In this document: positions 9,029 through 34,508 of the stretch, one piece after another | Layout of the letters: every line of letters starts with the position of its first letter | How positions within the stretch are numbered: position 1 is the stretch's first letter | Source: a virus | Taxonomy: Duplodnaviria > Heunggongvirae > Uroviricota > Caudoviricetes | Length of the DNA: 43,981 bases | Virus record (IMG/VR): IMGVR_UViG_3300045988_012512 | Coordinates: 1 to 43,981 of that record | Strand: one strand, 5' to 3' | Program-made: the position numbers and the translations under genes | The notes under the pieces: model-generated | The model's input: the letters and a program-made list of their open reading frames with translations, nothing else | The model's database searches: none | What the model was told of the DNA's origin: nothing

Positions 9029-9057
9029 TTGCACACCCCAATATAATAGGGTACTAT
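9029..9057 (+). promoter_or_regulatory. sigma70-type promoter (TTGCAC-17-TACTAT) for the plus-strand island
   Basis: Canonical spacing; same promoter architecture recurs at 18527, 29673 and 30772. Confidence 0.55.
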
Positions 9058-22895: not shown

Positions 22896-24146
22896 TTAAA
22901 GTGCGAAAGTCACCGGGATGTTGATTACTGGTTTAACCACCGGCATCTCGTAAACTACAGGATAGCCGAGAGCATCCGCCATATGGTCAATGATGCCGTC
23001 TTTAGCTGGCTCTCCGTTATCGTCGTATGCCTGCTGCTCCAGCGTCTTTGCTATCTCAGGGCATAAGTGGTCGTTAACCCACAGCTTACCTTTTTCCAGC
23101 GCGGTATTCACGGCTAAAACACGGTCTTTAACCGGTGGGTTGGCGGATTTAGCGCGGACATCAAAACCGGCCTGCTGTAGTAAGGCAATATCGGAGATTG
23201 ATGCCGAGTTGGTTTTGCGGTTCTTGCCGCTGGCGTCGGGGTAAACGACGATGCGGTGGCCTTGTGACTTCCACTTCTCAGTAATTACGCGCACGGTGTC
23301 TGGTGTATCGAACAAGCCTTTCAGTTCTGCTACCGCGTGCCAGCCGTCTTTACGTTGCACATACACGGCGCTGGCGTTTTTCGTAACGTTGAAGTCCTGC
23401 CCGATGTACAGTGTGTCGCCTGGCTGAATCGTCTCTTTGCTGCGGTGCTTGCGACGGTCATACGCGTAATACACGCTGCCGGATGTCAGGTTGACGAACT
23501 CACCGTTCAGATACGCGTTAATCAACTGTGCTGGGTAAGTCTCTGTCAGCGAGCTGATGTAATCCGGTGGCAGGAAACGCGCGTTCTCGTGTGTTGAAGC
23601 CTGCACCATCGAGTAACTCGGTGTCGGATTCTCTTTGAACTTGGCGTAGACGAACTTGAACCCTTCCGGCGTCGTGGTTACGGAGATGTGGTTAATTACA
23701 CCCGGGATAACCAGACGCATACGGGCTACAATTTTGTTCCACGCCAGTTCCGCCTTCTCGCGGCTCAATACGTCCAGTTCATCCACGACCGCAGCAGCGA
23801 TTTTGAAACCTACGATAGAGCCAGGGTTATCCATCGAACGGCAGATAACCGTCCCGAGAACCGTCTTACCGCGAGTAACCACGACTTCTTTGTCACCGGA
23901 TTTAACCAGCACATCAAGGCCGAGCAGGTTAGCCGCTTCCTCGAATGTCGGGTAGAAGATGTCGCGGATAGCTGGATATGTGGGGCCGAAGTAACCCAGG
24001 CGCGTACCTGGATGCTTGAGCATAAACGTAAGCAGGTCAAGGCAGCCAACAAATGTCTTTCCGCTGCCGAAGCCTCCGACGTAGGCCTTGTACTTGTTAT
24101 CGCAATTCAGGAACAGCGCCTGAGGGGCGGATAGCTGAATACTCAT
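22896..24146 (-). CDS. terminase large subunit
   Basis: Walker A GGFGSGKTFVG near the N-terminus; ATGA overlap with the upstream small subunit. Confidence 0.8.
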   Translation of the reverse strand: MSIQLSAPQALFLNCDNKYKAYVGGFGSGKTFVGCLDLLTFMLKHPGTRLGYFGPTYPAIRDIFYPTFEEAANLLGLDVLVKSGDKEVVVTRGKTVLGTVICRSMDNPGSIVGFKIAAAVVDELDVLSREKAELAWNKIVARMRLVIPGVINHISVTTTPEGFKFVYAKFKENPTPSYSMVQASTHENARFLPPDYISSLTETYPAQLINAYLNGEFVNLTSGSVYYAYDRRKHRSKETIQPGDTLYIGQDFNVTKNASAVYVQRKDGWHAVAELKGLFDTPDTVRVITEKWKSQGHRIVVYPDASGKNRKTNSASISDIALLQQAGFDVRAKSANPPVKDRVLAVNTALEKGKLWVNDHLCPEIAKTLEQQAYDDNGEPAKDGIIDHMADALGYPVVYEMPVVKPVINIPVTFAL

Positions 24147-24688
24147 TCCTCTACCTCGCCCATGTTTGTGGTAACTATTTTGCCTACGGGCTCCGCAACA
24201 CTGAAAATAATCTCAGTCGGTGCCGTTTCTTCGGTGGATTCGACCGGTTTCTCTTTGCTAAGGCCTAGCTTCGCGGCAGCAAATGTAGCCGAGATGCCCG
24301 CGGCCCCGGTCTCGGTGAAGTATGCCTCTTCCAGTGCCTGTGCAGTTTCATAGGCTTCTGCAAATGCGGGAATCTCGCGCAGCCATAGCTTAATAATCGG
24401 GATAGTGACGCCGATGTGTAAGGCGAAGCGGGCCAGTGACGGTGGTTTATCCTGAATCAGCGGGCGTTCGTCACCCTTGGACGTAGGTACAAGTTCCCAC
24501 GACGTGCGGTCGAAGAACTCGATTAACGCGTCGCAATAGTCCGGGTCCCACAACGCGGCGGAATTACGGGACGATTGATAAAGGCTCTGTTTCCCACGCG
24601 GTCGCCTACGGCGGCGGTTTGCACTAACAGCTTCTTCATGTGCAGCTTGCACCACCTCTGGCGATGGCTGCTTGAGTTTCAGCTTCAT
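24143..24688 (-). CDS. terminase small subunit
   Basis: Arg-rich basic N-terminus; AAGGGG RBS before the ATG at 24688 (ORF track extends to 24727). Confidence 0.5.
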   Translation of the reverse strand: MKLKLKQPSPEVVQAAHEEAVSANRRRRRPRGKQSLYQSSRNSAALWDPDYCDALIEFFDRTSWELVPTSKGDERPLIQDKPPSLARFALHIGVTIPIIKLWLREIPAFAEAYETAQALEEAYFTETGAAGISATFAAAKLGLSKEKPVESTEETAPTEIIFSVAEPVGKIVTTNMGEVEE

Positions 24689-24780
24689 AGAATCCCCTTG
24701 CATATGCGTCTGACCATCAGAGCGCACCAGACGCGCCCTACGCGTCTAAAGGGATTATATAAGGGGATTGGGCGGGATGT

Positions 24781-24806
24781 ACAGAAAAGCCCTCCGTAGA
24801 GGGCTT
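24781..24806 (-). terminator. intrinsic terminator between early operon and terminase genes
   Basis: Minus strand reads AAGCCCTCTACGGAGGGCTT followed by a T-run. Confidence 0.55.
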
Positions 24807-24898
24807 GTATCAGTTATATAGGCCGTGTCGTGGTGCTCTCTTACCGTCGCCGTCGTAATGGTCATTAGCTACGGCGATAGCCCAGGCGTTAGGGATGA

Positions 24899-25141
24899 TT
24901 AGTAACCGCATTCGTTCTCCTCTTTAGCAATACGTTGTTCAGTTTTAGTGATGCCACGGCGCGTGAATAACACCGGGCTTGTCTTAACGTGCGTCATCAG
25001 ACGGTTGTTATAGATTACGTGGCGCTCACATTTCACGTCTTTGCTGTACTTCGCGATCGTCATTTCGTTGAGGCCAGTTTGTCGGCATGTCTCCGCCATC
25101 GTGCCGAATTCTTTAATCAGGTTAGGAATGCTGGTAATCAT
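24899..25141 (-). CDS. small putative DNA-binding protein
   Basis: HTH-like ETCRQTGLNEMTIAKYSKD; ATGA overlap with the upstream ORF. Confidence 0.35.
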   Translation of the reverse strand: MITSIPNLIKEFGTMAETCRQTGLNEMTIAKYSKDVKCERHVIYNNRLMTHVKTSPVLFTRRGITKTEQRIAKEENECGY

Positions 25142-25332
25142 CCTAAGAAATTCCTCGTTGTCCACATCGCATTCGGATATTTGTTATCGCGGTCCTGCAC
25201 TACGGCAATCACGTTACCACGTTGCACCAGGCAGAAGTGCCGTTGTTGCTCACCGTTGTAGCGACGCCAGATTGCTTCTTCGATTGCCGCATTAATGTCA
25301 CTGAACACTGTCTCTACCCCACATAAACCCAA
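25138..25332 (-). CDS. hypothetical early protein
   Basis: ORF-track ORF without an ATG start (TTG or GTG only). Confidence 0.25.
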   Translation of the reverse strand: MGLCGVETVFSDINAAIEEAIWRRYNGEQQRHFCLVQRGNVIAVVQDRDNKYPNAMWTTRNFLG

Positions 25333-25501
25333 TCAATACGCCGATAAAATAACCTGCTGCGACAAGGCCAATAACCACCTCAAGACTCATACTCAACCCT
25401 CCATACTTAATAGCACGTATCCAGGCAGTTCCGCCAGCTTGATTCCTGCCATAACAGGCTCAAAATGCTCAGGTAATATCTTTAGTTCGTGAAACATACT
25501 C

Positions 25502-25684
25502 TCACCCAACTATCTCATCACCAAGCCACGCCGTTTCTCGTATATCATCGACCACACAGGCGGCGTGCTCACGGCTAATTGCAAAAATGTAGAAACTAAA
25601 CTTCTTCCCGTCGGCGTCGATATGGTTAACCGAGTAGGGTTTCCACAGGACACCATCAATTACTACTGGTTTAGGCGACTTCAT
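25502..25684 (-). CDS. hypothetical early protein
   Basis: 60-aa ORF in the coupled early operon. Confidence 0.3.
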   Translation of the reverse strand: MKSPKPVVIDGVLWKPYSVNHIDADGKKFSFYIFAISREHAACVVDDIRETAWLGDEIVG

Positions 25685-25919
25685 ACGCTTTACCGCATTT
25701 TAAGCATGTGACTCGATGCACCCCATCAACTAAATGCAGGCGGTAATCATGCTCGCAGGCGTTCATCTTTTCCCCTTCTCCTCTCAACAACATGAGAAGA
25801 ACCTTAAATGCGGCTAACTGGTACTCACCGTTAATCGACAGTTGCCCGCCTAGCGTCTGTTTCTCCGACTCAAGCACCAGAATACGGCGCTCGAGCGATG
25901 CGATTGTGATTTTAGGCAT
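25671..25919 (-). CDS. coiled-coil plus zinc-ribbon small protein
   Basis: C-terminal CEHDYRLH...CLKCGKAY; same Cys motif occurs twice in the 28964..29512 protein. Confidence 0.4.
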   Translation of the reverse strand: MPKITIASLERRILVLESEKQTLGGQLSINGEYQLAAFKVLLMLLRGEGEKMNACEHDYRLHLVDGVHRVTCLKCGKAYEVA

Positions 25920-26143
25920 TATTCTGCTCCCTCATAAAAATAACCATCGAAACTGTCGTTAGTAGGGGAAGGTTTGTTCAGGTTAAAGCGGTTAATCAGT
26001 TCGCGGCGTTGCTCCATCAGACGGTCTACCTTATTTGCGTAGTACTGAATCATAGTATCCAGGCAAGCAATCTCTGATTCGCCGTTGTCGGCAGGGCGGA
26101 GCGCAGCTTCTACACACGCTTTCTCATATTCACGGTCAGTCAT
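25919..26143 (-). CDS. hypothetical early protein
   Basis: 74-aa ORF; start overlaps upstream stop. Confidence 0.35.
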   Translation of the reverse strand: MTDREYEKACVEAALRPADNGESEIACLDTMIQYYANKVDRLMEQRRELINRFNLNKPSPTNDSFDGYFYEGAE

Positions 26144-26297
26144 TTTTACGCTCTCCCCACATGCGATTGAGATACTTGTTCTTGTCCGGCCCAGGGAAAC
26201 TGTTACGTTTCATCAGTTCCTCACGTGTCGGGAACGGTGTGTGACTGACTTTACGGCCTACTCGTAATGGTTGGCTTACTTGACCTTGTTCGCTCAT
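26136..26297 (-). CDS. hypothetical small protein (53 aa)
   Basis: ATG at 26297; TGATG coupling to the upstream gene. Confidence 0.3.
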   Translation of the reverse strand: MSEQGQVSQPLRVGRKVSHTPFPTREELMKRNSFPGPDKNKYLNRMWGERKND

Positions 26298-26461
26298 CAC
26301 TTAACCTCAACATAATCGGTAGTAAGGAATACAATTTCGCCGTTAACAATCAAAAGCGGTGTATCTTCGATGACGCTTTTAACCTCTACAAAATACCCAC
26401 CGTAACTGTCGTCTATAAACAGAACGTCTCCAGGTACTAAATCTGCGGCTAACTTGCTCAT
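26297..26461 (-). CDS. hypothetical small protein (54 aa)
   Basis: ATG at 26461 in an ATGA overlap with the upstream ORF. Confidence 0.3.
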   Translation of the reverse strand: MSKLAADLVPGDVLFIDDSYGGYFVEVKSVIEDTPLLIVNGEIVFLTTDYVEVK

Positions 26462-26607
26462 TTCTTCTCTCCTGCATAAGCTGCTTTCAGTGTCTGCATC
26501 GCGGCGAACCAGAACGCGTCCGCGGGAATGCTGTTGCTCAGGTTACTAACGGCGATTCGTGCCATCAGTTGTGCGTCTTTGAATGCTTCGATGTCTGTGA
26601 TTTTCAT
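26458..26607 (-). CDS. hypothetical small protein (49 aa)
   Basis: First gene after the promoter at 26642..26670; ATG at 26607. Confidence 0.3.
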   Translation of the reverse strand: MKITDIEAFKDAQLMARIAVSNLSNSIPADAFWFAAMQTLKAAYAGEKK

Positions 26608-26641
26608 TTCTCTCTACTCCGTTCTCGTTGTCGATGGAGTA

Positions 26642-26670
26642 AATATAATAGGGTCGAGGGTAATAGTCAA
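26642..26670 (-). promoter_or_regulatory. sigma70-type promoter (TTGACT-17-TATATT)
   Basis: Read on the minus strand, immediately after a strong terminator. Confidence 0.5.
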
Positions 26671-26692
26671 CTAGTCATTGCAGAAAATAGAT

Positions 26693-26723
26693 AAAAAAAA
26701 TCCCGGCTAGGTCAGGGCCGGGA
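26693..26723 (-). terminator. strong intrinsic terminator (7-bp GC stem followed by eight T)
   Basis: Minus strand reads TCCCGGCCCTGACCTAGCCGGGA then TTTTTTTT. Confidence 0.75.
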
Positions 26724-26760
26724 GAAACAGAGAGCAGAGGGATGATACAGGAGGTTGGTG
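26693..26760 (-). ncRNA. candidate small RNA (about 65 nt, CU-rich) between tandem terminators
   Basis: Promoter-like TTGACA-17-CATACT at 26794..26766 on the minus strand, then a pyrimidine-rich segment, then the terminator at 26723..26693. Confidence 0.25.
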
Positions 26761-26906
26761 AAACCAGTATGAAGCTGCCGTTGTTGGGTGTCAACAGAGA
26801 TTTCCGGCTCGCGTTACCGCACATCGGCCTGACCTTGTCACAGGTCCGCGCGGGGGATGATACCCGGAATGCCCGCAATGTTGTTTATCTTCTGTTGACG
26901 AAATAA

Positions 26907-26929
26907 AACCCGGATTCGCGGTCCGGGTT
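26907..26929 (-). terminator. intrinsic terminator downstream of the endolysin gene
   Basis: 8-bp stem AACCCGGA / TCCGGGTT followed on the minus strand by TTTATTTC. Confidence 0.5.
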
Positions 26930-26968
26930 TCGGGGTGGGGCAAGCACAAACAGCGCAGGGTGATTATA

Positions 26969-27457
26969 TCAGCCTTTCACCGCACGTCCAATAGCAACCG
27001 CCTCTTGCCACGGTTTACCGTCGAACAGTGCCAGACGTCCAGCGGTACGGCGGCGCAAGCCAAGTAATGGTTTGCCGTTCTGGTTGATGAACAGCGCCAG
27101 CTTGGCCCGCAGTGTCGCAACGTCGCCTGAGCGCAGTGCCTTACCGGTACCGGTAGTAGCTGCGATAACGCCAGCACCCGCGTTAAATACCAGGTCGCAC
27201 ACTGCATCGAACTGCGCCTGTGTCAGCGAATGGTGTGCGGCGGCGTCAACCGCAGCTACGGCCTTAGCCATGTCGCGATTCAGTAACAGGAGGCCTTGGC
27301 CTGGTGTGATGGTCTGCCCGGCCTTAACATGTGGGCCATAGCTTCCGTACCCAATAGTAAGGTACTTCTCATTTGGCGTAGCACGATACGCAGTCCCGCG
27401 GAACCCCTCGAACGCGGCGGTGAAATGCAGTCCATTATCTGAAATATTTCGAGACAC
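26969..27457 (-). CDS. endolysin (GH24 lysozyme / T4 lysozyme-like)
   Basis: LHFTAAFEGFRGTAYRATPNEKYLTIGYG catalytic motif; GGAGG RBS before GTG at 27457 (ORF track extends to 27508). Confidence 0.75.
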   Translation of the reverse strand: MSRNISDNGLHFTAAFEGFRGTAYRATPNEKYLTIGYGSYGPHVKAGQTITPGQGLLLLNRDMAKAVAAVDAAAHHSLTQAQFDAVCDLVFNAGAGVIAATTGTGKALRSGDVATLRAKLALFINQNGKPLLGLRRRTAGRLALFDGKPWQEAVAIGRAVKG

Positions 27458-27707
27458 GCTTATGTCCTCCGTATGACAGCCACGCCTGACGAATCTGGCG
27501 CAGCGCAACTAATGTGATTAATGTCTCAGGCAGCGTTGGTGACACGCTGCCCTGTAACAGGTGGATACATCCGGCGGCGCAGACGATAGCAGTCAGGATA
27601 TAGAGCACCCGGCCGAACAGCCCGTCATCAACGCTGGGATGGTACACATTAAACAGCGATGTACCCCCGATTGCCAGCATACCGCCGAACCAGAATAACT
27701 CATTCAT
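27435..27707 (-). CDS. holin-like membrane protein
   Basis: About 90 aa from ATG 27707 (MNELFWFGGMLAIGG...) with 2-3 hydrophobic helices, immediately upstream of the endolysin. Confidence 0.55.
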   Translation of the reverse strand: MNELFWFGGMLAIGGTSLFNVYHPSVDDGLFGRVLYILTAIVCAAGCIHLLQGSVSPTLPETLITLVALRQIRQAWLSYGGHKRVSKYFR

Positions 27708-28008
27708 CCGGGCCTCCTCGACGTGAGATGTATTCCCCGGCGACGATACCGGAGAGGCGGGAATAGATAGGCATCCAGAGAATAGCGATGATGAAACCCA
27801 GACCAGCGATTTCACGCTCCCCGGTAATGCCGAACCATTGGGCAGCGAGAGGCGCACCGAATACGGCGCAAGCGAAGCCGGTTACAATAAAGAATAAGCC
27901 GTCGATGGGTCCAGAAATAACGGACTTATGTTGTCGTAGTCCGATGACCCCTCCGGCGAGTGCGGCAGCGAGAAGCCAGCCTGTCACTGTTTCAGTAAAT
28001 TTATCCAA
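27700..28008 (-). CDS. holin / antiholin-like membrane protein (three predicted transmembrane helices)
   Basis: 102 aa with three hydrophobic segments; adjacent to the second holin-like gene. Confidence 0.55.
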   Translation of the reverse strand: MDKFTETVTGWLLAAALAGGVIGLRQHKSVISGPIDGLFFIVTGFACAVFGAPLAAQWFGITGEREIAGLGFIIAILWMPIYSRLSGIVAGEYISRRGGPDE

Positions 28009-28083
28009 GATGAATCCTCCAGGTGCGTATTAAGTATGCAGTAACTGGAGGATAGCACGGTTAGGAATTATCTTAATAACGGT

Positions 28084-28377
28084 TTATTTATGACGCCAGA
28101 TGTATTGTCGTCTCTGCGGTTTCGTCGGAATATCATCGTATCCGAGCGATTTCCAGTAATTAAATAACCGATTAGCGATTGCAGCGCGTTCCTGCGTTTT
28201 AAACTCACCGAGATTCACGGCCTTCCAGTTCTGGAATCCACAGGCGCGGACAGCTTTGCGTCGGGCCTGAATCTCAGGGTACAGCGCGTTACCCCGACGC
28301 TTGCATATCTGTGTTTTAGCTCTCGGTGACAGCGGCGAGAGGCCGCTTCGTTTCAGGATGTCAGTTGCAAGGCTCAT
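28084..28377 (-). CDS. hypothetical basic protein
   Basis: Likely start at ATG 28377 (ATGA overlap); ORF track extends to 28422. Confidence 0.35.
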   Translation of the reverse strand: MSLATDILKRSGLSPLSPRAKTQICKRRGNALYPEIQARRKAVRACGFQNWKAVNLGEFKTQERAAIANRLFNYWKSLGYDDIPTKPQRRQYIWRHK

Positions 28378-28565
28378 ATACCGAGAATCCCGCTGGCCAT
28401 TTCTTCGGTAGCTTTCGAACACGGCTCATACATTACCTGTTCAGCGAAGTTACGCAGCTTATGCTCAAGCGCCGCGTAATCATCGTATGTCACATAGTCG
28501 CCGTAGTCCCATTTAGCCATCTCAGGCTCTTCCCATCTGGTAGATAATTCGTATCTCTGTACCAT
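28374..28565 (-). CDS. small protein, paralogue B (MVQRYEL...)
   Basis: Begins with the same ATGGT-CAGAGATA nucleotide string as the adjacent paralogue. Confidence 0.35.
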   Translation of the reverse strand: MVQRYELSTRWEEPEMAKWDYGDYVTYDDYAALEHKLRNFAEQVMYEPCSKATEEMASGILGI

Positions 28566-28763
28566 CACTCCACCCCTTCCACATGTGTAACTGACCCACA
28601 GTTCGCGCACTCGACGTAATCCGGGAACTGGTCTTTGTATTTCTGCAACTCGGCTTTTAGTTTCGCATAGTCCCTGTAGCCAACCCATTCACCGTCTGCG
28701 TCTTTCTCTAAATCGATATGCCCGGTAACCCAGTCTTCTTTTAAATCATATCTCTGCACCATG
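28565..28763 (-). CDS. small protein, paralogue A (MVQRYDL..., C-terminal CANCG)
   Basis: AGGAG RBS before ATG 28763; tandem paralogue of 28374..28565. Confidence 0.4.
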
Positions 28764-28967
28764 TTATCTCTCCTGTTTACCAAGTCGCTTAGGTGAGCAG
28801 ATAGCGCGTACCTCTGAATCGTTTGGCTTGTCACCCTGAAACAGGAAGTGCGCGTTCTCTGCGGCGCGTGCCGCTGACTGGCACGCCTCCATCGAATAAA
28901 ACGTTTCTGATGCAGCGAGTTGCATCTGGCCTGCGGACAATACCCAGATAAATAAGATGCTGGTCAT
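28764..28967 (-). CDS. small protein with N-terminal hydrophobic signal or anchor
   Basis: MTSILFIWVLSAGQMQLAAS hydrophobic N-terminus, two Cys; ATGA coupling. Confidence 0.4.
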   Translation of the reverse strand: MTSILFIWVLSAGQMQLAASETFYSMEACQSAARAAENAHFLFQGDKPNDSEVRAICSPKRLGKQER

Positions 28968-29512
28968 GTCGTCTCTCCACATCTGCGGCACACAAAATAA
29001 TCCTCGTCGGCATCAAGAACCCAATCATGATCACATTCCTGAGTATCGTTTTTCGGTTTATATTCCTTGTCGTCCCACTCACGTTCACCACATTTAGAGC
29101 AAAGCTCGCTACCAGGAACGTTGTTCGGATTGCCTTCGCTGAGAAACAACCCAGGCATAATAATCCAAGAGTGCTCGCATTCCTGGGTATCTTCTTTACG
29201 GCAACCAGATTGCTCCGGCGGTACAGGCGTCTGGGTGCACCGACAATTTACCGTTGGCCCGGGCGCATGTTCGCCAACCACGTAGCTCTGGCCCCTAGAA
29301 ATGTACCCACCCTTACGCACAAGTTTGTAAGCCTCTACATCCCCGGTGGCGGTAGCCAGCGCCATATGTAACTCCTTAATCTGCACCGAAGCATCACGTA
29401 ACTGATTCTTAAGTGACTGCACCTCATGAGCCAGGTCTTCGCTCCGGCTGTTATTTACCTGCTGCCGTAGCTGGTCGATCAGGTACTCGAATATTTCGTT
29501 TTTGTTACTCAT
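28964..29512 (-). CDS. coiled-coil protein with two zinc-ribbon-like repeats
   Basis: QECEHSWII...CSKCGERE and QECDHDWVL...CRRCGET; start at ATG 29512 (ORF track 29533). Confidence 0.45.
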   Translation of the reverse strand: MSNKNEIFEYLIDQLRQQVNNSRSEDLAHEVQSLKNQLRDASVQIKELHMALATATGDVEAYKLVRKGGYISRGQSYVVGEHAPGPTVNCRCTQTPVPPEQSGCRKEDTQECEHSWIIMPGLFLSEGNPNNVPGSELCSKCGEREWDDKEYKPKNDTQECDHDWVLDADEDYFVCRRCGETT

Positions 29513-29642
29513 CAGCTTCACCCCTTTTCTCATCCACCCCGACTAGCAGCGATTTAGTGTCGCCGTCACACACCGAAGTGCTACTAATTATTTCGTAAGC
29601 GTCTACCAGTTCGCCTAAAGTCCAGCTACCGTACCAGCCCAT
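29505..29642 (-). CDS. hypothetical small protein (45 aa)
   Basis: GAGAGGAG RBS before ATG 29642; first gene after the promoter at 29673. Confidence 0.3.
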   Translation of the reverse strand: MGWYGSWTLGELVDAYEIISSTSVCDGDTKSLLVGVDEKRGEADE

Positions 29643-29672
29643 CTCTGTCTCTCCTCTCGCTTGTGTAAATGA

Positions 29673-29701
29673 ATAGTAGCCTATTCTATCTTAGCGTGCA
29701 A
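29673..29701 (-). promoter_or_regulatory. sigma70-type promoter (TTGCAC-17-TACTAT)
   Basis: Same architecture as the promoters at 9029 and 30772. Confidence 0.5.
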
Positions 29702-29858
29702 GTAAATTTTATTGGTGTTTGTATTGTTGTATCTCCCGCAATAGTCGCTTCGATTGTGGCGTTTGGTGAAAGTGTCGCTTTTTGACGACACTAAGTTAAA
29801 GTTGTACGCTGCTGTGTAGCAGCGTAAGTCACTCAGTAAAATCCCAAACTATTGAACA

Positions 29859-30062
29859 TCACACTTCTGGCGGCTCAGGTAACGGCATCCAGTGAGAAAA
29901 CACTTCCTGCGCATGTTCCCCGTAGTCCGCCCGGAAATCACACCAAGTTACCCCATCCCACTCGTACACATTGTTCTGGACAACACCGCCCATACTACTG
30001 ACGACCAAAACTGGTTGACCTAGCCCCGGCATCCGCGCACTACACTTAACCCACTCGCCCAT
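29859..30062 (-). CDS. DUF551-family phage protein
   Basis: C-terminal HWMPLPEPP signature. Confidence 0.6.
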   Translation of the reverse strand: MGEWVKCSARMPGLGQPVLVVSSMGGVVQNNVYEWDGVTWCDFRADYGEHAQEVFSHWMPLPEPPEV

Positions 30063-30065
30063 AAA

Positions 30066-30209
30066 TCACCCCTTATTCATCGCAGTTTGCACACCAGCTT
30101 TCCACGCCCGCCACGCGAGACGCGTCTTAACGTTCAGGTACTCTTTCTTTGAACCCTTGTTAACCGGCAGACCCTCGACCACAGCCCACCGTTCAAATGC
30201 TTCTCTCAT
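30066..30209 (-). CDS. hypothetical small protein (47 aa)
   Basis: ATGA-coupled to the upstream ORF. Confidence 0.3.
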   Translation of the reverse strand: MREAFERWAVVEGLPVNKGSKKEYLNVKTRLAWRAWKAGVQTAMNKG

Positions 30210-30361
30210 ACCAGAACCTCACATTCATCCCGATACACGAACAATAACGACCCTTTGTACTCAATCATAAAACCATAATGGTTGCTGCTGAACGCCAGAA
30301 AAACATCACCTACCGAGATACCGAAATCTATAAGCCTGCGGTCAGTTATACGGATTCGCAT
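30206..30361 (-). CDS. hypothetical small protein (51 aa)
   Basis: TAATG coupling to the upstream ORF. Confidence 0.3.
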   Translation of the reverse strand: MRIRITDRRLIDFGISVGDVFLAFSSNHYGFMIEYKGSLLFVYRDECEVLV

Positions 30362-30549
30362 TAACGGCAACCTCCCTCAGAGTCTTCGGCACGAGCATCA
30401 TGATTCGATGCCGTTCTCTCCCGCACTTCTACCATCCTTCCTACCACTGCGGCGTAATGCACATACAGCTTTATTGCGTAATCTTTATTACTTGTCGTCT
30501 CTGTTATGACTCCGTCGACGTATACGTCGTAAATTAATTCTTCCATCAC
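30361..30549 (-). CDS. hypothetical early protein
   Basis: 62-aa ORF, ATGA-coupled. Confidence 0.35.
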   Translation of the reverse strand: MMEELIYDVYVDGVITETTSNKDYAIKLYVHYAAVVGRMVEVRERTASNHDARAEDSEGGCR

Positions 30550-30737
30550 TTCGCCCCTTTGAATTTAAAATTGTTGCCGATTAGCTTTAAATTCTCTTCC
30601 GCTACGTATACCACCGAATTTACTCCTCTCACCTTTTGCACAGTAACTCCGTACTCTCCCGGAAATAAAGCGGATTTTAATTCAATCACACCGTATTTAC
30701 CGTCGGCGCATTTAACCAACTGACCCTTCTTAAACAT
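30546..30737 (-). CDS. hypothetical early protein
   Basis: GAGGAG RBS before ATG 30737; first gene after the promoter at 30772. Confidence 0.4.
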   Translation of the reverse strand: MFKKGQLVKCADGKYGVIELKSALFPGEYGVTVQKVRGVNSVVYVAEENLKLIGNNFKFKGAK

Positions 30738-30771
30738 AACCACCACTCCTCTGTCTCGTTTCGATAAGTGA

Positions 30772-30800
30772 ATAGTATCCTATTATATTGGGGTGTGCAA
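30772..30800 (-). promoter_or_regulatory. sigma70-type early promoter (TTGCAC-17-TACTAT)
   Basis: -35, spacer and -10 nearly identical to the promoter at 9029..9057. Confidence 0.55.
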
Positions 30801-31152
30801 GAGAATAGTTACGTTGCCGTTGTGATTCTTTCGTTTCTTTAAAGAGTACGCAACGCAGTGGGTGGGCGATAGCCCACCCCAGCGGAGTGAAGTACTCTCT
30901 ACCTTGCTTACGGCAACTAAAGAAACTTTTAATTATCAAGTACTTATGAATGGAGGTAAAATTTAAATAGACGGGGTCTTTCTTGTCACTTGCTGTTACT
31001 TTTAGGAAACTTAGATACTAACGTTACCAAGAGTACTGTTTAGCGCCCCGCTTTAGGGCGGGGCTTTAAGTACCCGAGACTTAAGAATAATGTTTCTAAG
31101 TAATTCTGAACTAAGGCCCTTCGATACGTTGATTTTACAGCTACATTTTATT
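30801..31152. promoter_or_regulatory. divergent control region with nested palindromes, AGTAC repeats and a conserved hairpin
   Basis: About 350 bp without credible ORFs between divergent operons; inverted repeat AGAGTAC/GTACTCT around an 8-bp GC hairpin; hairpin element at 31042..31068. Confidence 0.5.
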
Positions 31153-31192
31153 TTGTCAATAGGTTGTGTTTAGTTATTATAGGTGTTATAGT
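31153..31192 (+). promoter_or_regulatory. tandem sigma70-type promoters (TTGTCA-16-TATTAT and TTGTGT-17-TATAGT) for the plus-strand operon
   Basis: Hexamers with canonical spacing upstream of the gene at 31222. Confidence 0.45.
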
Positions 31193-31221
31193 TGTTTAAC
31201 TTGATAAAGAGGGCGTGTAAA

Positions 31222-31401
31222 ATGACACAGAAAGAAGTAGCAGACTTAATCGGAGTTTCCACTATGACTCTTAATCGCTGGCTTCGGTCCGGTAAGTTCC
31301 CGGAGTGTTGCCGTGTTATTAACGGCTACCGGCAGCCAGGTACGTTTGACCGCGCTACCGTGGAGGCGTGGATTAAGGAGAACGTGAAAGATGCTAACTA
31401 A
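31222..31401 (+). CDS. small HTH DNA-binding protein (AlpA/excisionase-like)
   Basis: MTQKEVADLIGVSTMTLNRWLRSGKFP; AGAGGG RBS (ORF track starts at 31192 with a non-ATG codon). Confidence 0.5.
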   Translation: MTQKEVADLIGVSTMTLNRWLRSGKFPECCRVINGYRQPGTFDRATVEAWIKENVKDAN

Positions 31402-31724: not shown

Positions 31725-33992
31725 ATGTCCGATGTAATTTTATCCTACTCGTGGTCTCGTCGCAACGCGCGGGCAGAGAAAAAGGATATAAACGTCAGAA
31801 CCACACACACGGCAACACTGGACGACCTGAAAGAGTTAATCCAGCCGCTTGATGCTGTCCGTGACGGAATTAACCCGAAGACAGCGCCCGGTTATATCAC
31901 CGCCGCGTGCGACTCAACGCACAGCACCGTAAAAGACCCGGAAACCGGTGACTTTAAGCGAGCGCGTAAAGGCTTCTTCTATCGCTGTGACGCGTCTGTA
32001 AGCAAATCATCGCTGGCGTATCTGGACTTTGACAGCGCAACGCCGGAAGAGTATCAGGAAGCGGTGCGCCTGGTTAAGCGTAGCCGCCAGGCTATGTGTC
32101 TCTACACCACGGCATCCCATACCGATGAGTCACCGCGCTTTCGCGTCGTCATGCCGCTGGGCCGCCCGGTCGAAGGGGGCGACATCATCCGCATACGTCA
32201 TGGATTGCTGGAGCACTTCTTCAAAGGCATGGGCGCTGACCGTAGCGGGTTCACTTTGTCTCAGCCCATGTACCTTCCTCCGGTAGGCTCTCAGGTTATC
32301 TGGTCGCGCCGTAACGACCTTATTGACCCGGAAGAGTTACTGGAAGGCATCCCCGCCGTTGACGTTAGCAGCGCATCTGACTACCAGATACCGGAAGAAC
32401 TGCGCACTGCATTTACTGATGCGTTCGAGGCACTGGCGTTCGAATACGGCGGCATCATGACGCCGCGTGGCCTTAAGATGCCCGCCACACCGGAACACGC
32501 AGAAAACTACAGCGACCCGACCCCGCGCCCGGACGACTTCCTGCTGTGCTTCCCGCGCGAGGGATATGAAGCGCCGAACGTAACGATGATTCACGACACC
32601 GACATCACGGCAACCGAAGGCATGTCGCCGAAAGAGGTGTGGAAGTATGCGTGTGATGCGACCGGACTGCCGTTCAGTGAAGTCGCAGAGGCCATCGGAT
32701 GGGGCGCGCGTGAAGCCGTCTCATGCAGCCTGGATGACCTTGAAGACGACGAGGACTCAGAGGAGGACGAGTTACCGGAACCGGTAAAGGCTGATTTCGT
32801 CGTTGAGGGGTACATGCCGTCGGATTGTATCTGGGATATTGTTGGGGAGTCTGGCACGTATAAATCATTCTATACGCTGGGGATGATGTACCTGAGCGCC
32901 GCCGGATACCGGTTTGCCGGGGCAGATACCCAGCGTTGCCACCATTTCTATATCGACGGTGAGGGCGGTGCCACTACACGCACCCGTATTGATGCACTCG
33001 CGGCTAAATATGGCGAGGAAGGTAAAGATTATGTACATGTTATCGATATGGGTGAAGTCGGAAAACTGAAAAGCCTGATTAAGTTAATGCGCGAAACTGC
33101 GGGTGATGAACCCATCGGCATGGTCGCGTTCGACACCCTTAACCAGACGCTGGCCCTGACGATTGATAAGTTCGACGAGAACAGTTCATCAACGGCAATC
33201 GGCATGGGTAAAGTTATCGCCATCCTGAAAGAAGTACGCGACGCAACTAAAGCCGCGGCAGGCGTTGTACACCATACGCCGAAGGGTGGAAAGAAAGCCC
33301 GTGGCAGTGGAGCATTGTATGCTGGTGTCGACGTGGAACTGACAATCGAACGTGCTACCGACCGTCAGATAAACGTATACCACTCTAAATTTAAGCACGG
33401 GCCTCAACAGAAGACGGTTGGCATGGTACTGGAGTCGGTACAGTTTCGTGAAGCACCGCCGCCGAAAGAGTACCGCGCGGTTGAGTTCCTCGGTAGCACA
33501 GAGGAATACGGCACAATAGTAAACCTCGACCTGCCTGAGCCGCACAAGGCGCTTGTGCTGATGCCGTGGGGCTTCGAGCCGTTCAAGACTGATGAGGAGA
33601 AAGAGCGGGAAGAAGGGTTAACTAACGAAGGTAAACAAAATGTACGTAAAACCGTAGAGAACGCCGTCAACAGTTCCGAGTCCACTATACTCGCGGCGTT
33701 TGAACTGGCGGAGGGGACCTACAACGGCAACGAAGGTATCACGGTATCCGCGGCGAATAAGCTCGCACAGTCTGACCCCAACGCAAAGGCGTTTAACTCC
33801 AAAGAAGCCATAGAACGCGGGAAGATTAAGAAAATGGTTGAGGCTGGGTATCTTGTTCCGGGTACTGACGAAAACAATCAGATAATCCCAGGCCGTTACA
33901 GACTTAACACCCGGATAACGGATAACAAGATTCCGAAGACAATATACGAACCCAATGAGATGCTGACAGTGACAGAGGAGGATTTGGAATGA
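31725..33992 (+). CDS. replication protein: primase-like N-terminal domain plus RecA-like ATPase/helicase domain
   Basis: N-terminal LAYLDFD and SHTDESPRFRV (primase-polymerase-like); central GESGTYKS P-loop and MVAFDTL Walker-B-like segment. Confidence 0.55.
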   Translation: MSDVILSYSWSRRNARAEKKDINVRTTHTATLDDLKELIQPLDAVRDGINPKTAPGYITAACDSTHSTVKDPETGDFKRARKGFFYRCDASVSKSSLAYLDFDSATPEEYQEAVRLVKRSRQAMCLYTTASHTDESPRFRVVMPLGRPVEGGDIIRIRHGLLEHFFKGMGADRSGFTLSQPMYLPPVGSQVIWSRRNDLIDPEELLEGIPAVDVSSASDYQIPEELRTAFTDAFEALAFEYGGIMTPRGLKMPATPEHAENYSDPTPRPDDFLLCFPREGYEAPNVTMIHDTDITATEGMSPKEVWKYACDATGLPFSEVAEAIGWGAREAVSCSLDDLEDDEDSEEDELPEPVKADFVVEGYMPSDCIWDIVGESGTYKSFYTLGMMYLSAAGYRFAGADTQRCHHFYIDGEGGATTRTRIDALAAKYGEEGKDYVHVIDMGEVGKLKSLIKLMRETAGDEPIGMVAFDTLNQTLALTIDKFDENSSSTAIGMGKVIAILKEVRDATKAAAGVVHHTPKGGKKARGSGALYAGVDVELTIERATDRQINVYHSKFKHGPQQKTVGMVLESVQFREAPPPKEYRAVEFLGSTEEYGTIVNLDLPEPHKALVLMPWGFEPFKTDEEKEREEGLTNEGKQNVRKTVENAVNSSESTILAAFELAEGTYNGNEGITVSAANKLAQSDPNAKAFNSKEAIERGKIKKMVEAGYLVPGTDENNQIIPGRYRLNTRITDNKIPKTIYEPNEMLTVTEEDLE

Positions 33993-34191: not shown

Positions 34192-34210
34192 AAGGGGCAT
34201 TAAGCCCCTT
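34192..34210. terminator. bidirectional intrinsic terminator (AAGGGGC-ATTAA-GCCCCTT)
   Basis: Hairpin between convergent genes, T-runs on both sides. Confidence 0.6.
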
Positions 34211-34415
34211 CACCTAACGCCAGCCACTTGGCGTCTACTTCCAGCACTTCCGCCAGTTTAAACAGCGTTGCCGGGCGGACGTCCTGAGTTACACCGAGAG
34301 CCAGCTGGTTAATCGCACCCTGGGAAACGCCAGTCAGGACAGCCAGCCGGCGCTGGGAGATGCCGAGTTCTTTACGGCGTTGCTCTACACGGATTCCTAG
34401 TTCAGATGGTTGCAT
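34200..34415 (-). CDS. XRE-family (Cro/CI-type) HTH transcriptional regulator
   Basis: LGISQRRLAVLTGVSQGAINQL HTH; AAGGAG RBS; divergent from the promoter at 34480. Confidence 0.65.
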   Translation of the reverse strand: MQPSELGIRVEQRRKELGISQRRLAVLTGVSQGAINQLALGVTQDVRPATLFKLAEVLEVDAKWLALGEGA

Positions 34416-34479: not shown

Positions 34480-34508
34480 TTGACATGTGAATAGTTCGCT
34501 ATTATAGT
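34480..34508 (+). promoter_or_regulatory. consensus sigma70 promoter (TTGACA-17-TATAGT)
   Basis: Perfect -35; overlaps the second copy of the ATGTGAATAGT direct repeat. Confidence 0.6.

What the first reader, a model, noticed from the sequence alone, without database searches (positions are those of the whole stretch)
24899..30737. Dense early operon of more than twenty tiny, translationally coupled genes
Nearly every junction in this minus-strand region is an ATGA, TGATG or TAATG overlap, and several credible genes encode fewer than 60 aa and are missing from the ORF track (for example 26136..26297, 29505..29642, 30066..30209, 30206..30361). Three internal promoters of the conserved type subdivide the operon. 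Apart from a DUF551 protein and the lysis genes, none has a recognisable function.
Basis: seen in the sequence. Interest (0 to 1): 0.4.

Follow-up and report, generated by a model that had tools for sequence, protein, structure and literature searches.

The report
Ordinary Kagunavirus small-gene accessory arm
This is the usual tightly packed arm of about 25 small genes, with the lysis genes embedded, that lies between the replication control region and the terminase of K1G/K1H-like E. coli phages; the tiny genes are real, but nearly all are already annotated in relatives and the arm is not a single early operon.

Summary
The window is a Kagunavirus (Guernseyvirinae) genome. The closest record, phage G AB-2017, is 91% identical over 81% of this region.

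I confirm 25 minus-strand ORFs between 30737 and 24810, with a median length of 63 aa; ten are shorter than 60 aa. All four belong to PHROG families, are annotated in relatives and are under purifying selection.

Three claims are overstated:
- **Junctions.** Only 10 of 24 are ATGA, TGATG or TAATG. Seventeen overlap in some way and 21 lie within 4 nt.
- **Promoters.** Only one promoter of the conserved type is internal; a second sits at the head of the arm.
- **Operon.** Three intrinsic terminators and at least three promoters split the arm into at least three units. One unit carries the lysis cassette. "Early" is only inferred, and only for g1–g11.

Extra results:
- g11 is a divergent AP2-type DNA-binding protein.
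- g21 is a deletion remnant of a DUF3850 gene.
- g22 is a conserved 27–30-aa glycine-zipper membrane micro-gene, unannotated in most of 63 relatives.
- A hairpin buries the holin ribosome-binding site.
- A 20-bp operator links these promoters to an XRE repressor.

Verdict: real, ordinary and already known. Interest is low.

The parts
31132..31159 (-). Near-consensus sigma-70 promoter (TTGACA-16-TAAAAT). It lies in the divergent control region about 390 nt upstream of g1 and overlaps the plus-strand promoter of the HTH gene.
30769..30800 (-). Class I conserved promoter TTGCAC-N17-TACTATTCA, carrying the operator AATAG-N4-CTATT. It sits at the head of unit 1 (g1-g5).
   Evidence: Syntenic in 8 of 8 Kagunavirus relatives.
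30546..30737 (-). g1, 63 aa, phrog_12538. Relatives annotate a neighbouring gene of this arm as SH3/FeoA-like.
30361..30546 (-). g2, 61 aa, phrog_30617. TGATG junction with g1.
TAATG junction.
   Evidence: Annotated as G_45 in KY295895.
ATGA junction.
   Evidence: Annotated as G_44, PE1_055 and TE3_053.
29859..30062 (-). g5, 67 aa, DUF551.
   Evidence: 50 bits against a cut-off of 22.
29643..29858 (-). 216-nt gap. It holds two hairpins (29826-29805 and 29792-29771), then the class I promoter 29701-29670. Relatives carry an extra gene of about 57 aa here; it is deleted in this window.
   Evidence: Annotated as G_41, PE1_059 and TE3_056.
28964..29512 (-). g7, 182 aa, phrog_6094. N-terminal coiled-coil-like part and a Cys-rich internal repeat. 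8-nt overlap with g6.
   Evidence: (D2)
28764..28967 (-). g8, 67 aa, phrog_3766. Found in 10 of 10 relatives (one copy carries a stop), pN/pS 0.07.
28565..28762 (-). g9, 65 aa, phrog_29624.
28374..28565 (-). g10, 63 aa, phrog_37174 (weak hit).
28084..28377 (-). g11, 97 aa, phrog_9632: a divergent AP2-type DNA-binding domain. Weak SD and an ATGA overlap with g10. In all ten relatives a g11 homologue lies upstream of the lysis cassette (directly adjacent in most).
28009..28083 (-). 75-nt holin leader. The 9-bp hairpin AUCCUCCAG/CUGGAGGAU buries the holin Shine-Dalgarno site.
27700..28008 (-). g12, holin (class II-like), 102 aa, TTG start.
27435..27707 (-). g13, holin (class I-like), 90 aa.
26969..27457 (-). 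g14, endolysin (Phage_lysozyme), 162 aa, GTG start.
26898..26927 (-). Intrinsic terminator T1: CCCGGA-N7-TCCGGG followed by UUUUAUUU.
   Evidence: -14.4 kcal/mol.
26700..26723 (-). Intrinsic terminator T2: CCCGGC-N9-GCCGGG followed by AU8.
   Evidence: -13.0 kcal/mol. Conserved in 10 of 10 relatives.
26642..26670 (-). Sigma-70 promoter TTGACT-17-TATATT, at the head of unit 3 (g15-g25).
   Evidence: Conserved in Kagunavirus and Jerseyvirus.
26458..26607 (-). g15, 49 aa, phrog_2180.
26297..26461 (-). g16, 54 aa, a rare accessory gene with no PHROG family. Found in only 3 of 50,697 phage records.
25919..26143 (-). g18, 74 aa, phrog_1402.
25671..25919 (-). g19, 82 aa, phrog_9023.
25502..25684 (-). 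g20, 60 aa, phrog_10509. No own SD; 14-nt overlap with g19; pN/pS 0.06.
25393..25497 (-). g21, 34 aa. It is the remnant left by an in-frame 42-codon deletion in a 76-aa DUF3850/ASCH gene that is intact in phage K1H.
25298..25390 (-). g22, 30 aa, a single-pass membrane micro-protein with a conserved (G/S)xxxGxxxGxxxG motif. Unannotated in most relatives.
25138..25308 (-). g23, 56 aa, GTG start, phrog_5407.
24899..25141 (-). g24, 80 aa, NinH-like (phrog_268; the Pfam NinH hit is below threshold).
24810..24911 (-). g25, 33 aa, phrog_32259. Found in 10 of 10 relatives, pN/pS 0.11.
24754..24822 (-). Terminator T3 (AAGCCCUC-UACG-GAGGGCUU), then promoter TGTACA-18-TATAAT ahead of terS. 96-100% conserved in Kagunavirus.

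Best explanation
The region is the leftward accessory-gene arm of a virulent Kagunavirus siphophage. It lies between the divergent control region (HTH gene and primase-helicase on the other strand) and the terminase genes.

I infer that host sigma-70 RNA polymerase transcribes it as at least three units:
1. g1-g5, from the class I promoter at 30800 plus an upstream consensus promoter at 31159.
2. g6-g11 plus the holin-holin-endolysin cassette, from the class I promoter at 29701, ending at terminator T1.
3. g15-g25, a nin-like block with NinH-like and DUF2737 genes, from the promoter at 26670, ending at T3.

A further promoter then serves terS and terL.

Within each unit the genes abut or overlap. 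Ribosomes finishing one gene can therefore restart on the next. Most genes also have their own Shine-Dalgarno site. g11, g20 and g21 do not, and probably depend on coupling.

Gene content is mosaic and mostly dispensable accessory cargo, swapped as cassettes at gene boundaries.

The two class I promoters carry the same 20-bp operator as the replication-gene promoters. A phage XRE repressor probably controls them in a Cro-like way (inferred). That would make g1-g11 early or delayed-early.

Holin translation from these read-through transcripts is probably damped by a hairpin that buries its ribosome-binding site (inferred).
For: **Identity and synteny.** The region gives 446-450 phage matches, all the best ones Kagunavirus, with the same gene order. 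There is no match in 5,426 E. coli genomes, so it is not a prophage.

**The genes are real.** This rests on Shine-Dalgarno enrichment, PHROG membership of 23 of 25, pN/pS of 0.06-0.73 and the antisense control.

**Transcription units.**
- Promoters.
- Terminators T1, T2 and T3 fold at -13 to -15 kcal/mol and carry U-tracts. They are conserved in relatives.

**Mosaicism.**
- Relatives cover only 50-82% of the region, in 10-16 pieces.
- Identity per gene is bimodal.
- g16 is found in 3 of 50,697 records.
- One gene is deleted in the 216-nt gap, and g21 carries an internal deletion.

**Operator.**
- There are 11 sites against 1.07 expected.
- Two copies lie in the XRE gene's own upstream region.
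- The sites are syntenic in fPoEco01 and in 8 of 8 Kagunavirus relatives.

**Holin leader.** MFE is -18.8 kcal/mol, z = -2.68, and the leader is 95-100% conserved. Jerseyviruses have a hairpin of unrelated sequence in the same place that also buries GGAG.

**Timing.** RNA-seq of Kagunavirus K1B4 puts the HTH gene early and lysozyme and NinH in the middle class (PMC12645636).
Against: - There are no transcript or ribosome data for this phage. Promoters and terminators are sequence predictions only.
- The promoter/terminator scanning tool listed none of T1-T3. They rest on my own folding.
- The hairpins between g5 and g6 lack a good U-tract, so units 1 and 2 may be one transcript.
- The K1B4 study is coarse, with 57 genes called and most micro-ORFs not annotated. 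It does not name three of its four early genes in the text I could read.
- Binding of the operator by the XRE protein is untested. The other HTH protein (31192-31401) is an alternative binder.
- pN/pS for g1, g2 and g5 (0.51-0.73) overlaps the antisense controls. For these three the case rests on PHROG membership and SD sites.
Confidence: 0.8

Rival explanations
1. One reading: one early operon of more than 20 translationally coupled genes, transcribed as a block immediately after infection and only subdivided by internal promoters.
For: - All genes lie on one strand, downstream of the divergent control region.
- 21 of 24 junctions are within coupling distance.
- Class I promoters share an operator with the replication promoters.
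Against: - Three conserved intrinsic terminators lie inside or at the end of the arm.
- The lysis cassette is embedded in it.
- Lysozyme and NinH were 'middle' genes in Kagunavirus K1B4.
- Only one internal promoter is of the conserved type.
Confidence: 0.12
2. The arm is mainly an anti-defence or host-takeover island. Most small proteins would inhibit host immunity or host machinery, as known for early small genes of T4, T7 and SPO1.
For: - The genes are small, hypervariable and mosaic, and lie next to the early control region.
- Class I promoters also drive the two plus-strand gene blocks at 9029 and 18527. In fPoEco01 the syntenic blocks include a superinfection-immunity gene.
Against: - There is no hit to any known anti-defence or host-takeover family in Pfam, PHROGs or NCBIfam.
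- Kagunavirus isolates are reported as highly sensitive to restriction-modification systems and variably sensitive to Old (PMC11990801).
Confidence: 0.25
3. A lambdoid-style layout under antitermination. The g15-g25 block would be a true nin-region equivalent. Late expression of the lysis and terminase genes would need read-through of T1-T3 and of the holin-leader hairpin, driven by a phage regulator. g11, the AP2-like protein upstream of the lysis genes, is the obvious candidate.
For: - NinH-like and DUF2737 genes are present.
- A g11 homologue lies upstream of the lysis cassette in all ten relatives, across both genera.
- In Jerseyvirus the holin leader looks like an intrinsic terminator.
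- g11 has a DNA-binding domain.
Against: - There is no similarity to Q, N or other known antiterminators.
- Each unit has its own promoter after the terminator.
- The Kagunavirus leader hairpin has no U-tract.
- AP2 domains in phages commonly belong to homing-endonuclease or integrase DNA-binding modules (my own knowledge).
Confidence: 0.15
4. Many of the micro-ORFs are chance ORFs and the region is partly non-coding.
For: - g21 is a deletion remnant.
- g16 has no family and is found in three records.
- pN/pS for g1, g2 and g5 is not far from the antisense controls.
Against: - The SD signal has p=7e-14.
- 23 of 25 are in PHROG families.
- ORFs are intact and full length in relatives, with an excess of synonymous change.
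- Alternative frames and the opposite strand carry stops.
Confidence: 0.03

Closest known systems
Homologous accessory arm of Kagunavirus phages (K1G, K1H, K1ind, G AB-2017, fPoEco01, fTaEco03; Guernseyvirinae)
   Same: - It occupies the same position, between the HTH/primase-helicase divergent region and terS.
- It has the same holin-holin-endolysin cassette in the middle.
- The same two class I promoters, the T2/promoter pair and the T3/promoter pair are present.
- Most genes are 85-100% identical.
   Different: - The cassette content is a new combination: the best relative covers 81-82% of the region.
- A gene of about 57 aa is missing from the 216-nt gap.
- The DUF3850 gene carries a 42-codon deletion.
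- The rare gene g16 is present.
- A segment of about 145 nt between T1 and T2 is shared with only four records.
nin region of lambdoid phages (lambda ninA-ninI, P22 nin genes)
   Same: - It is a run of small, mostly dispensable ORFs with ATGA-type stop/start overlaps (my own knowledge of lambda).
- A NinH-like gene is present (NinH is a Fis-like DNA-binding protein, PMC7166090), as is a DUF2737 gene.
- It lies close to the lysis and packaging genes.
   Different: - This is a virulent siphophage with no N/Q antitermination proteins detected.
- The nin-like block lies after the lysis cassette, not before a Q gene.
- It has its own promoter and is bracketed by terminators.
- The NinH match is below Pfam's threshold (20.7 bits against 29.8).
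Early small-gene clusters of virulent phages (T7 class I genes, T4 early ORFs, SPO1 host-takeover module)
   Same: They are dense runs of genes under 100 aa and mostly of unknown function, read by host RNA polymerase from strong sigma-70 promoters next to the replication or early control region (my own knowledge).
   Different: - There is no sequence relationship.
- Late functions (holins, endolysin) are embedded here.
- Temporal class is not established.
lambda S-gene 5' stem-loop (sdi) and other RNA structures that gate holin translation
   Same: An RNA hairpin lies immediately upstream of the holin start codon and involves the ribosome-binding region (comparison from my own knowledge).
   Different: - Here the hairpin buries the SD itself and the start codon is TTG.
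- No dual-start motif has been shown.
- Function is untested.

Membership tests
Kagunavirus accessory arm (homology and synteny) | Nucleotide similarity and conserved gene order between the HTH/primase-helicase control region and terS/terL | tested here: met
   91-92% identity over 76-82% of the region to KY295895 and K1H. Gene order is the same in 8 Kagunavirus relatives.
Single operon | One promoter and no internal terminators, giving one polycistronic transcript | tested here: not met
   By sequence prediction only: at least three internal promoters (29701, 26670, 24783) and three hairpin-plus-U-tract terminators, T1-T3. Transcript mapping was not possible.
Translationally coupled gene array | Stop and start codons overlap or lie within a few nucleotides | tested here: met
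   17 of 24 junctions overlap and 21 of 24 lie within 4 nt.
Translationally coupled gene array | Downstream translation depends on upstream translation | not testable with these tools
   21 of 25 genes have their own SD site, so coupling need not be obligatory. Only g11, g20 and g21 lack one.
Early gene class | Transcripts peak at the earliest time after infection | not testable with these tools
   There is indirect evidence only. The operator is shared with the replication promoters. In K1B4, lysozyme and NinH were 'middle' genes.
Lambdoid nin region | Presence of nin-family genes (for example NinH, PF06322) | tested here: inconclusive
   g24 scores 20.7 bits against PF06322, E=4e-4, below the 29.8-bit cut-off. 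Its match to phrog_268 has E=3.5e-30. Relatives annotate the gene as NinH.
Lambdoid nin region | Location between replication genes and the late regulator Q, read by N-antiterminated early transcription | tested here: not met
   The block lies downstream of the lysis cassette, behind two terminators and its own promoter. No family hit among the proteins scanned in or beside this arm suggested N or Q; the rest of the window was not scanned.
DUF551 (PF04448), g5 | Score above Pfam's gathering threshold | tested here: met
   50 bits against a cut-off of 22, full-length match.
DUF2737 (PF10930), g17 | Score above Pfam's gathering threshold | tested here: met
   38.9 bits against a cut-off of 25.
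AP2 DNA-binding domain (PF00847), g11 | Sequence match to the AP2 profile or to solved AP2 domains | tested here: inconclusive
   - The window protein alone gives no Pfam hit.
- The 40-member family profile hits WRI1 (7wq5), E=1.9e-5 over both AP2 domains, and TEM1 (7et4), E=0.011.
- 10 of 40 family members give sub-threshold AP2 hits.
- The 13-member profile hits a true multi-AP2 protein in 5 stretches.
AP2 DNA-binding domain (PF00847), g11 | Three-stranded sheet packed on a helix | tested here: inconclusive
   The AF2 core (residues 43-78) has pLDDT 83-92 and shows two strands plus a helix. Foldseek lists AP2 domains repeatedly, but every hit has E>1.
Anti-defence gene island | Homology to known anti-defence proteins, or a resistance phenotype | tested here: not met
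   There are no such hits in Pfam, PHROGs or NCBIfam. The genus is reported to be sensitive to restriction-modification systems. No dedicated anti-defence library was available.
Holin / endolysin lysis cassette (g12-g14) | Match to holin PHROG families and to Phage_lysozyme | tested here: met
   - phrog_2359, E=7e-29.
- phrog_2508, E=6e-34.
- PF00959, 91 bits.

The most novel reading that the evidence does not exclude
The arm may hold a compact, undescribed timing circuit for Guernseyvirinae, with three parts.
1. A Cro-like XRE repressor acts on a 20-bp operator (GTGAATAG-N4-CTATTATA) in seven or eight promoters, including the two that drive g1-g14.
2. A hairpin in the holin leader keeps holin untranslated on early read-through transcripts.
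3. The AP2-type protein g11, upstream of the lysis genes in all ten relatives examined, acts as the late switch.

Separately, g22 would be a new family of glycine-zipper membrane micro-proteins missed by almost all annotations of the genus.
Probability: 0.25. Interest if true: 0.45.

Novelty: already known. Interest (0 to 1): 0.2.

Why it matters
As stated, the finding matters little. Dense runs of overlapping small genes are a textbook feature of phage accessory regions. This one is a close homologue of arms already deposited and annotated for dozens of Kagunavirus genomes.

The value of the check is in its practical results:
- The micro-ORFs are real genes that a 60-aa cut-off hides.
- At least one conserved gene, the 27-30-aa membrane peptide g22, is missing from most public annotations of the genus.
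- g11 gains a predicted DNA-binding function.
- The predicted operator regulon and the holin-leader hairpin give concrete, testable hypotheses for how a small virulent siphophage times lysis. This is useful because Kagunaviruses are being developed for therapy and synthetic biology.

Tried and rejected
- **RNA genes.** Rfam at gathering thresholds and a tRNA/tmRNA scan of the whole window found nothing.
- **Prophage origin.** There is no match in complete E. coli genomes.
- **Terminator scan.** The scanning tool found no minus-strand terminators. I found them by reading the sequence and folding it.
- **Candidate ORFs in the 361-nt gap** (26675-26878 and 26791-26949). They have no PHROG hit, only partial matches in relatives, and pN/pS of 1.58, so I rejected them as genes.
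- **Plus-strand ORFs of 60 aa or more in the region.** They carry stops in relatives or have high pN/pS, so I rejected them.
- **26662-26675 as a third operator site.** It has one mismatch and a different context, and about one such site is expected by chance. I did not count it.
- **PDB sequence searches** for g7, g11 (single sequence) and g24 gave nothing meaningful.
- **NCBIfam** for ten of the proteins gave nothing above threshold.
- **Literature.** Searches for Kagunavirus or Jerseyvirus promoter and terminator studies returned nothing relevant. The K1B4 supplement gives gene coordinates but not the list of early genes.

Full report
**What the window is.** The 5.8-kb region matches 446 phage records. 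The best matches are all Kagunavirus (Guernseyvirinae, the K1G/K1H-like E. coli siphophages). Phage G AB-2017 is 91.4% identical over 81% of the region, and K1H is 92% identical over 76-82%. Complete E. coli genomes give no match, so this is not a prophage. At 43,981 bp the window is about one whole genome of this genus. The terminase genes (terS 24143-24703, terL 22896-24146) lie just downstream on the same strand. An HTH gene (31192-31401) and the primase-helicase gene (31725-33992) diverge from the upstream end.

**Checking the observation.** Reading the minus strand and choosing starts by Shine-Dalgarno site and by homologues gives 25 ORFs, g1 to g25, from 30737 to 24810.
- Lengths are 30-182 aa, median 63 aa. 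Ten are under 60 aa.
- The stretch is 89% coding.
- They fall below 60 aa, the default cut-off of the ORF tool used here, which would explain why an ORF track omits them.

The ORFs are not chance ORFs.
- 21 of 25 starts have an SD duplex of -6 kcal/mol or stronger, against 6.8% of the other 279 start-like triplets on that strand (p=7e-14).
- 23 of 25 match PHROG families, many at E<1e-25.
- Against ten fetched relatives, the 24 ORFs that have a match give pooled pN/pS of 0.06-0.73.
- Plus-strand ORFs in the region are broken by stops in relatives or give ratios of 0.57-1.07.
- All four named micro-ORFs are annotated CDS in GenBank relatives, for example G_33, G_41, G_44 and G_45 of KY295895 and PE1_055, PE1_059 and PE1_070 of MT711526.

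**Junctions.** The 24 junctions break down as follows:

| Junction type | Count |
|---|---|
| 1-nt overlap (TGATG/TAATG) | 5 |
| 4-nt overlap (ATGA) | 5 |
| 8-nt overlap | 3 |
| Overlap of 11-23 nt | 4 |
| Spacer of 1-4 nt | 4 |
| Gap of 216, 75 or 361 nt | 3 |

'Nearly every junction' is therefore an overstatement for the canonical forms (10 of 24). It is fair for close packing (21 of 24). In the carefully annotated relative fPoEco01, canonical 1- or 4-nt overlaps are as common elsewhere in the genome (15/40) as in this arm (11/25, p=0.61). Overlaps of any length are more common in the arm (18/25 vs 17/40, p=0.024).

**Promoters and terminators.** A 32-nt promoter cassette, TTGCAC-N17-TACTATTCA, occurs four times in the window against 1.09 expected.
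- Two copies serve plus-strand gene blocks at 9029 and 18527.
- One sits 32 nt upstream of g1 (30800-30769).
- One sits upstream of g6 (29701-29670).
- All eight Kagunavirus relatives have exactly these two copies in the arm. The two Jerseyviruses have none.

So one promoter of the conserved type is internal, not three. The other internal promoter-like sites are generic: TTGACT-17-TATATT at 26670-26642 and TGTACA-18-TATAAT at 24783-24754.

Each of these two generic sites is preceded by hairpin-plus-U-tract terminators:
- T1 (26927-26898) lies right after the endolysin stop.
- T2 (26723-26700) follows it.
- T3 (24822-24790) lies after g25.

They fold at -13 to -15 kcal/mol. The T2/promoter and T3/promoter segments are conserved in all ten relatives. 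The 106 nt before terS are 96-100% identical within the genus.

By prediction, the arm is at least three transcription units: g1-g5, g6-g14 including the lysis genes, and g15-g25. It is not one operon. The hairpins between g5 and g6 lack a U-tract, so the first two units may be joined.

**Temporal class.** 'Early' is not shown. The arm contains two holins and the endolysin. In the only Kagunavirus time-course RNA-seq (vB_Eco_K1B4), four genes were early, one of them the HTH regulator. Lysozyme and the NinH-like gene peaked in the 'middle' class together with structural genes (PMC12645636). That study annotated only 57 genes and missed most micro-ORFs.

There is an indirect argument for an early character of g1-g11. 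The class I promoters contain the palindrome AATAG-N4-CTATT, whose wider core is GTGAATAG-N4-CTATTATA. It occurs 11 times at one mismatch or fewer, against 1.07 expected. It also lies in the spacer of the near-consensus plus-strand promoters of the replication genes at 34490, 37113 and 40676. Two copies sit in the divergent region in front of a 71-aa XRE-family HTH gene (34200-34415, PF01381 E=2.3e-12). This is the classic layout of an autoregulated, Cro-like repressor. Binding was not tested.

**Gene content.**
- g5 is DUF551, g17 is DUF2737, and g12-g14 are the lysis genes.
- g24 is NinH-like. Its Pfam score is below threshold, but phrog_268 matches at E=3.5e-30. NinH of lambda is a Fis-like DNA-binding protein (PMC7166090).
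- g11 homologues lie upstream of the lysis cassette in all ten relatives, spanning both genera; they are directly adjacent in most. The single sequence has no Pfam hit.
  - A 13-sequence profile found 70 distant relatives. One is a 924-aa protein matched in five stretches that is a true AP2-domain protein.
  - A 40-sequence profile hits the solved AP2 domains of WRI1 (E=1.9e-5, both domains) and TEM1 (E=0.011).
  - 10 of 40 family members give sub-threshold AP2 hits.
  - AF2 models show a confident hairpin-plus-helix core. Foldseek matches to AP2 domains are not significant.
  - I call g11 a divergent AP2-type DNA-binding protein with moderate confidence.
- g21 is a remnant. A 126-nt in-frame deletion removes 42 codons of a 76-aa DUF3850/ASCH gene that is intact in K1H.
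- g16 is a rare cassette, found in 3 of 50,697 records.
- The other small genes have no recognisable function.

**Mosaicism.**
- Relatives cover 50-82% of the arm in 10-16 pieces.
- Per-gene identities are bimodal. For example, g7 is 99% identical in two relatives and 35-56% in six others.
- Relatives carry an extra gene of about 57 aa inside what is a 216-nt gap here.

This pattern fits dispensable accessory cargo exchanged at gene boundaries, as in lambdoid nin regions. An anti-defence role is possible but unsupported. No known anti-defence family is hit. Kagunavirus isolates are reported as highly sensitive to restriction-modification systems (PMC11990801).

**Things found beyond the finding.**
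1. *g22* (25298-25390) is a 30-aa single-pass membrane peptide.
   - tblastn finds it in 63 phage records. In 23 of the 25 rows listed, nothing is annotated under the match.
   - In six fetched relatives it exactly fills an 87-nt 'intergenic' gap.
   - Across 11 copies, variable columns fall 8/7/20 by codon position and pN/pS is 0.18. The other two frames carry stops.
   - ATG and SD are conserved. The 27-aa forms end in a TAATG overlap with the next gene.
   - The motif (G/S)xxxGxxxGxxxG is invariant.
2. *The holin leader.* The 75-nt leader folds into a 9-bp hairpin that buries the SD site of the TTG-initiated holin gene (-18.8 kcal/mol, z=-2.68). It is 95-100% conserved in the genus. Jerseyviruses have a hairpin of unrelated sequence at the same place that also buries GGAG and looks like a terminator. 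This suggests, but does not prove, that holin translation is gated at the RNA level.

**Verdict.** The interpretation as a single early operon is not supported. The kind of feature is textbook and this instance is a close homologue of annotated regions. Interest is low. The side observations (g22, g11, the operator regulon and the holin leader) are modest but testable.

Noticed in passing
window 25298-25390 (minus strand): g22 is a conserved 27-30-aa single-pass membrane micro-protein with an invariant (G/S)xxxGxxxGxxxG glycine zipper. It is present in 63 phage records, and nothing was annotated under the match in 23 of the 25 listed. pN/pS is 0.18 and it has a TAATG junction with the next gene.
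   Followed up: yes
window 25393-25497 (minus strand): g21 is an in-frame 42-codon internal deletion of a 76-aa DUF3850/ASCH ('RNA-binding protein') gene that is intact in phage K1H. In most relatives this gene is absent and g22 directly follows g20.
   Followed up: yes
window 28009-28083 (minus strand); L008 and L009 upstream of the holin genes: The holin leader folds into a 9-bp hairpin (AUCCUCCAG/CUGGAGGAU) that buries the Shine-Dalgarno site of the TTG-start holin gene. Jerseyviruses have a hairpin of different sequence plus a U-run at the same place, also burying GGAG.
   Followed up: partly
window 9045, 18543, 29672, 30771, 34446, 34490, 37113, 40676 (operator cores); XRE gene 34200-34415 (minus strand): A 20-bp operator-like element, GTGAATAG-N4-CTATTATA, is shared by two promoter classes genome-wide (11 hits against about 1 expected). 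Two copies sit in front of a 71-aa XRE HTH gene, which suggests a Cro-like regulon. The sites are syntenic in fPoEco01.
   Followed up: partly
window 28084-28377 (minus strand): g11, whose homologues lie upstream of the lysis cassette in all ten relatives of both genera, is a divergent AP2-type DNA-binding domain protein. The family profile hits WRI1 and TEM1 AP2 structures. The fold search was inconclusive.
   Followed up: yes
window 26756-26900 (minus strand), between terminators T1 and T2: A segment of about 145 nt is shared with only four other phage records. It contains a TTGACA-17-CATACT promoter-like site (26794-26766) that could give a transcript of about 65 nt ending at T2, with a CCUCCU stretch. 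It has no coding signal and no Rfam hit.
   Followed up: partly
window 29643-29858: Relatives carry an extra gene of about 57 aa (annotated phrog_9384 in vB_VIPECOTH07) between nt 136 and 141 of this gap. It is cleanly absent here, so the upstream hairpins abut the class I promoter.
   Followed up: partly
window 24704-24809: The 106-nt region before terS (terminator T3, the TGTACA-18-TATAAT promoter and a 10-bp GC-rich hairpin) is 96-100% identical across Kagunaviruses and 93% identical in one Jerseyvirus. It is more conserved than the flanking genes. It may be a late promoter/regulatory site or a packaging site.
   Followed up: no
window 30845-31075 (minus strand): The roughly 390-nt leader between the consensus promoter at 31159 and g1 contains two very stable hairpins (-23.5 and -25.3 kcal/mol) without U-tracts. 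The upstream half is conserved only in K1H.
   Followed up: no
window 28964-29512 (minus strand); repeat at 29015-29053 and 29159-29197: g7 (182 aa) has an internal repeat encoding DTQEC(E/D)H(S/D)W followed by CxxC pairs, with a sub-threshold zinc-finger hit. It may be a tandem zinc-ribbon protein with a coiled-coil N-terminus. Its sequence is highly variable between relatives.
   Followed up: no
PMC12645636, supplementary annotation of vB_Eco_K1B4: The only Kagunavirus transcriptome study annotated 57 genes, with just 15 in the equivalent 6-kb arm. Most micro-ORFs were therefore not quantified.
   Followed up: partly
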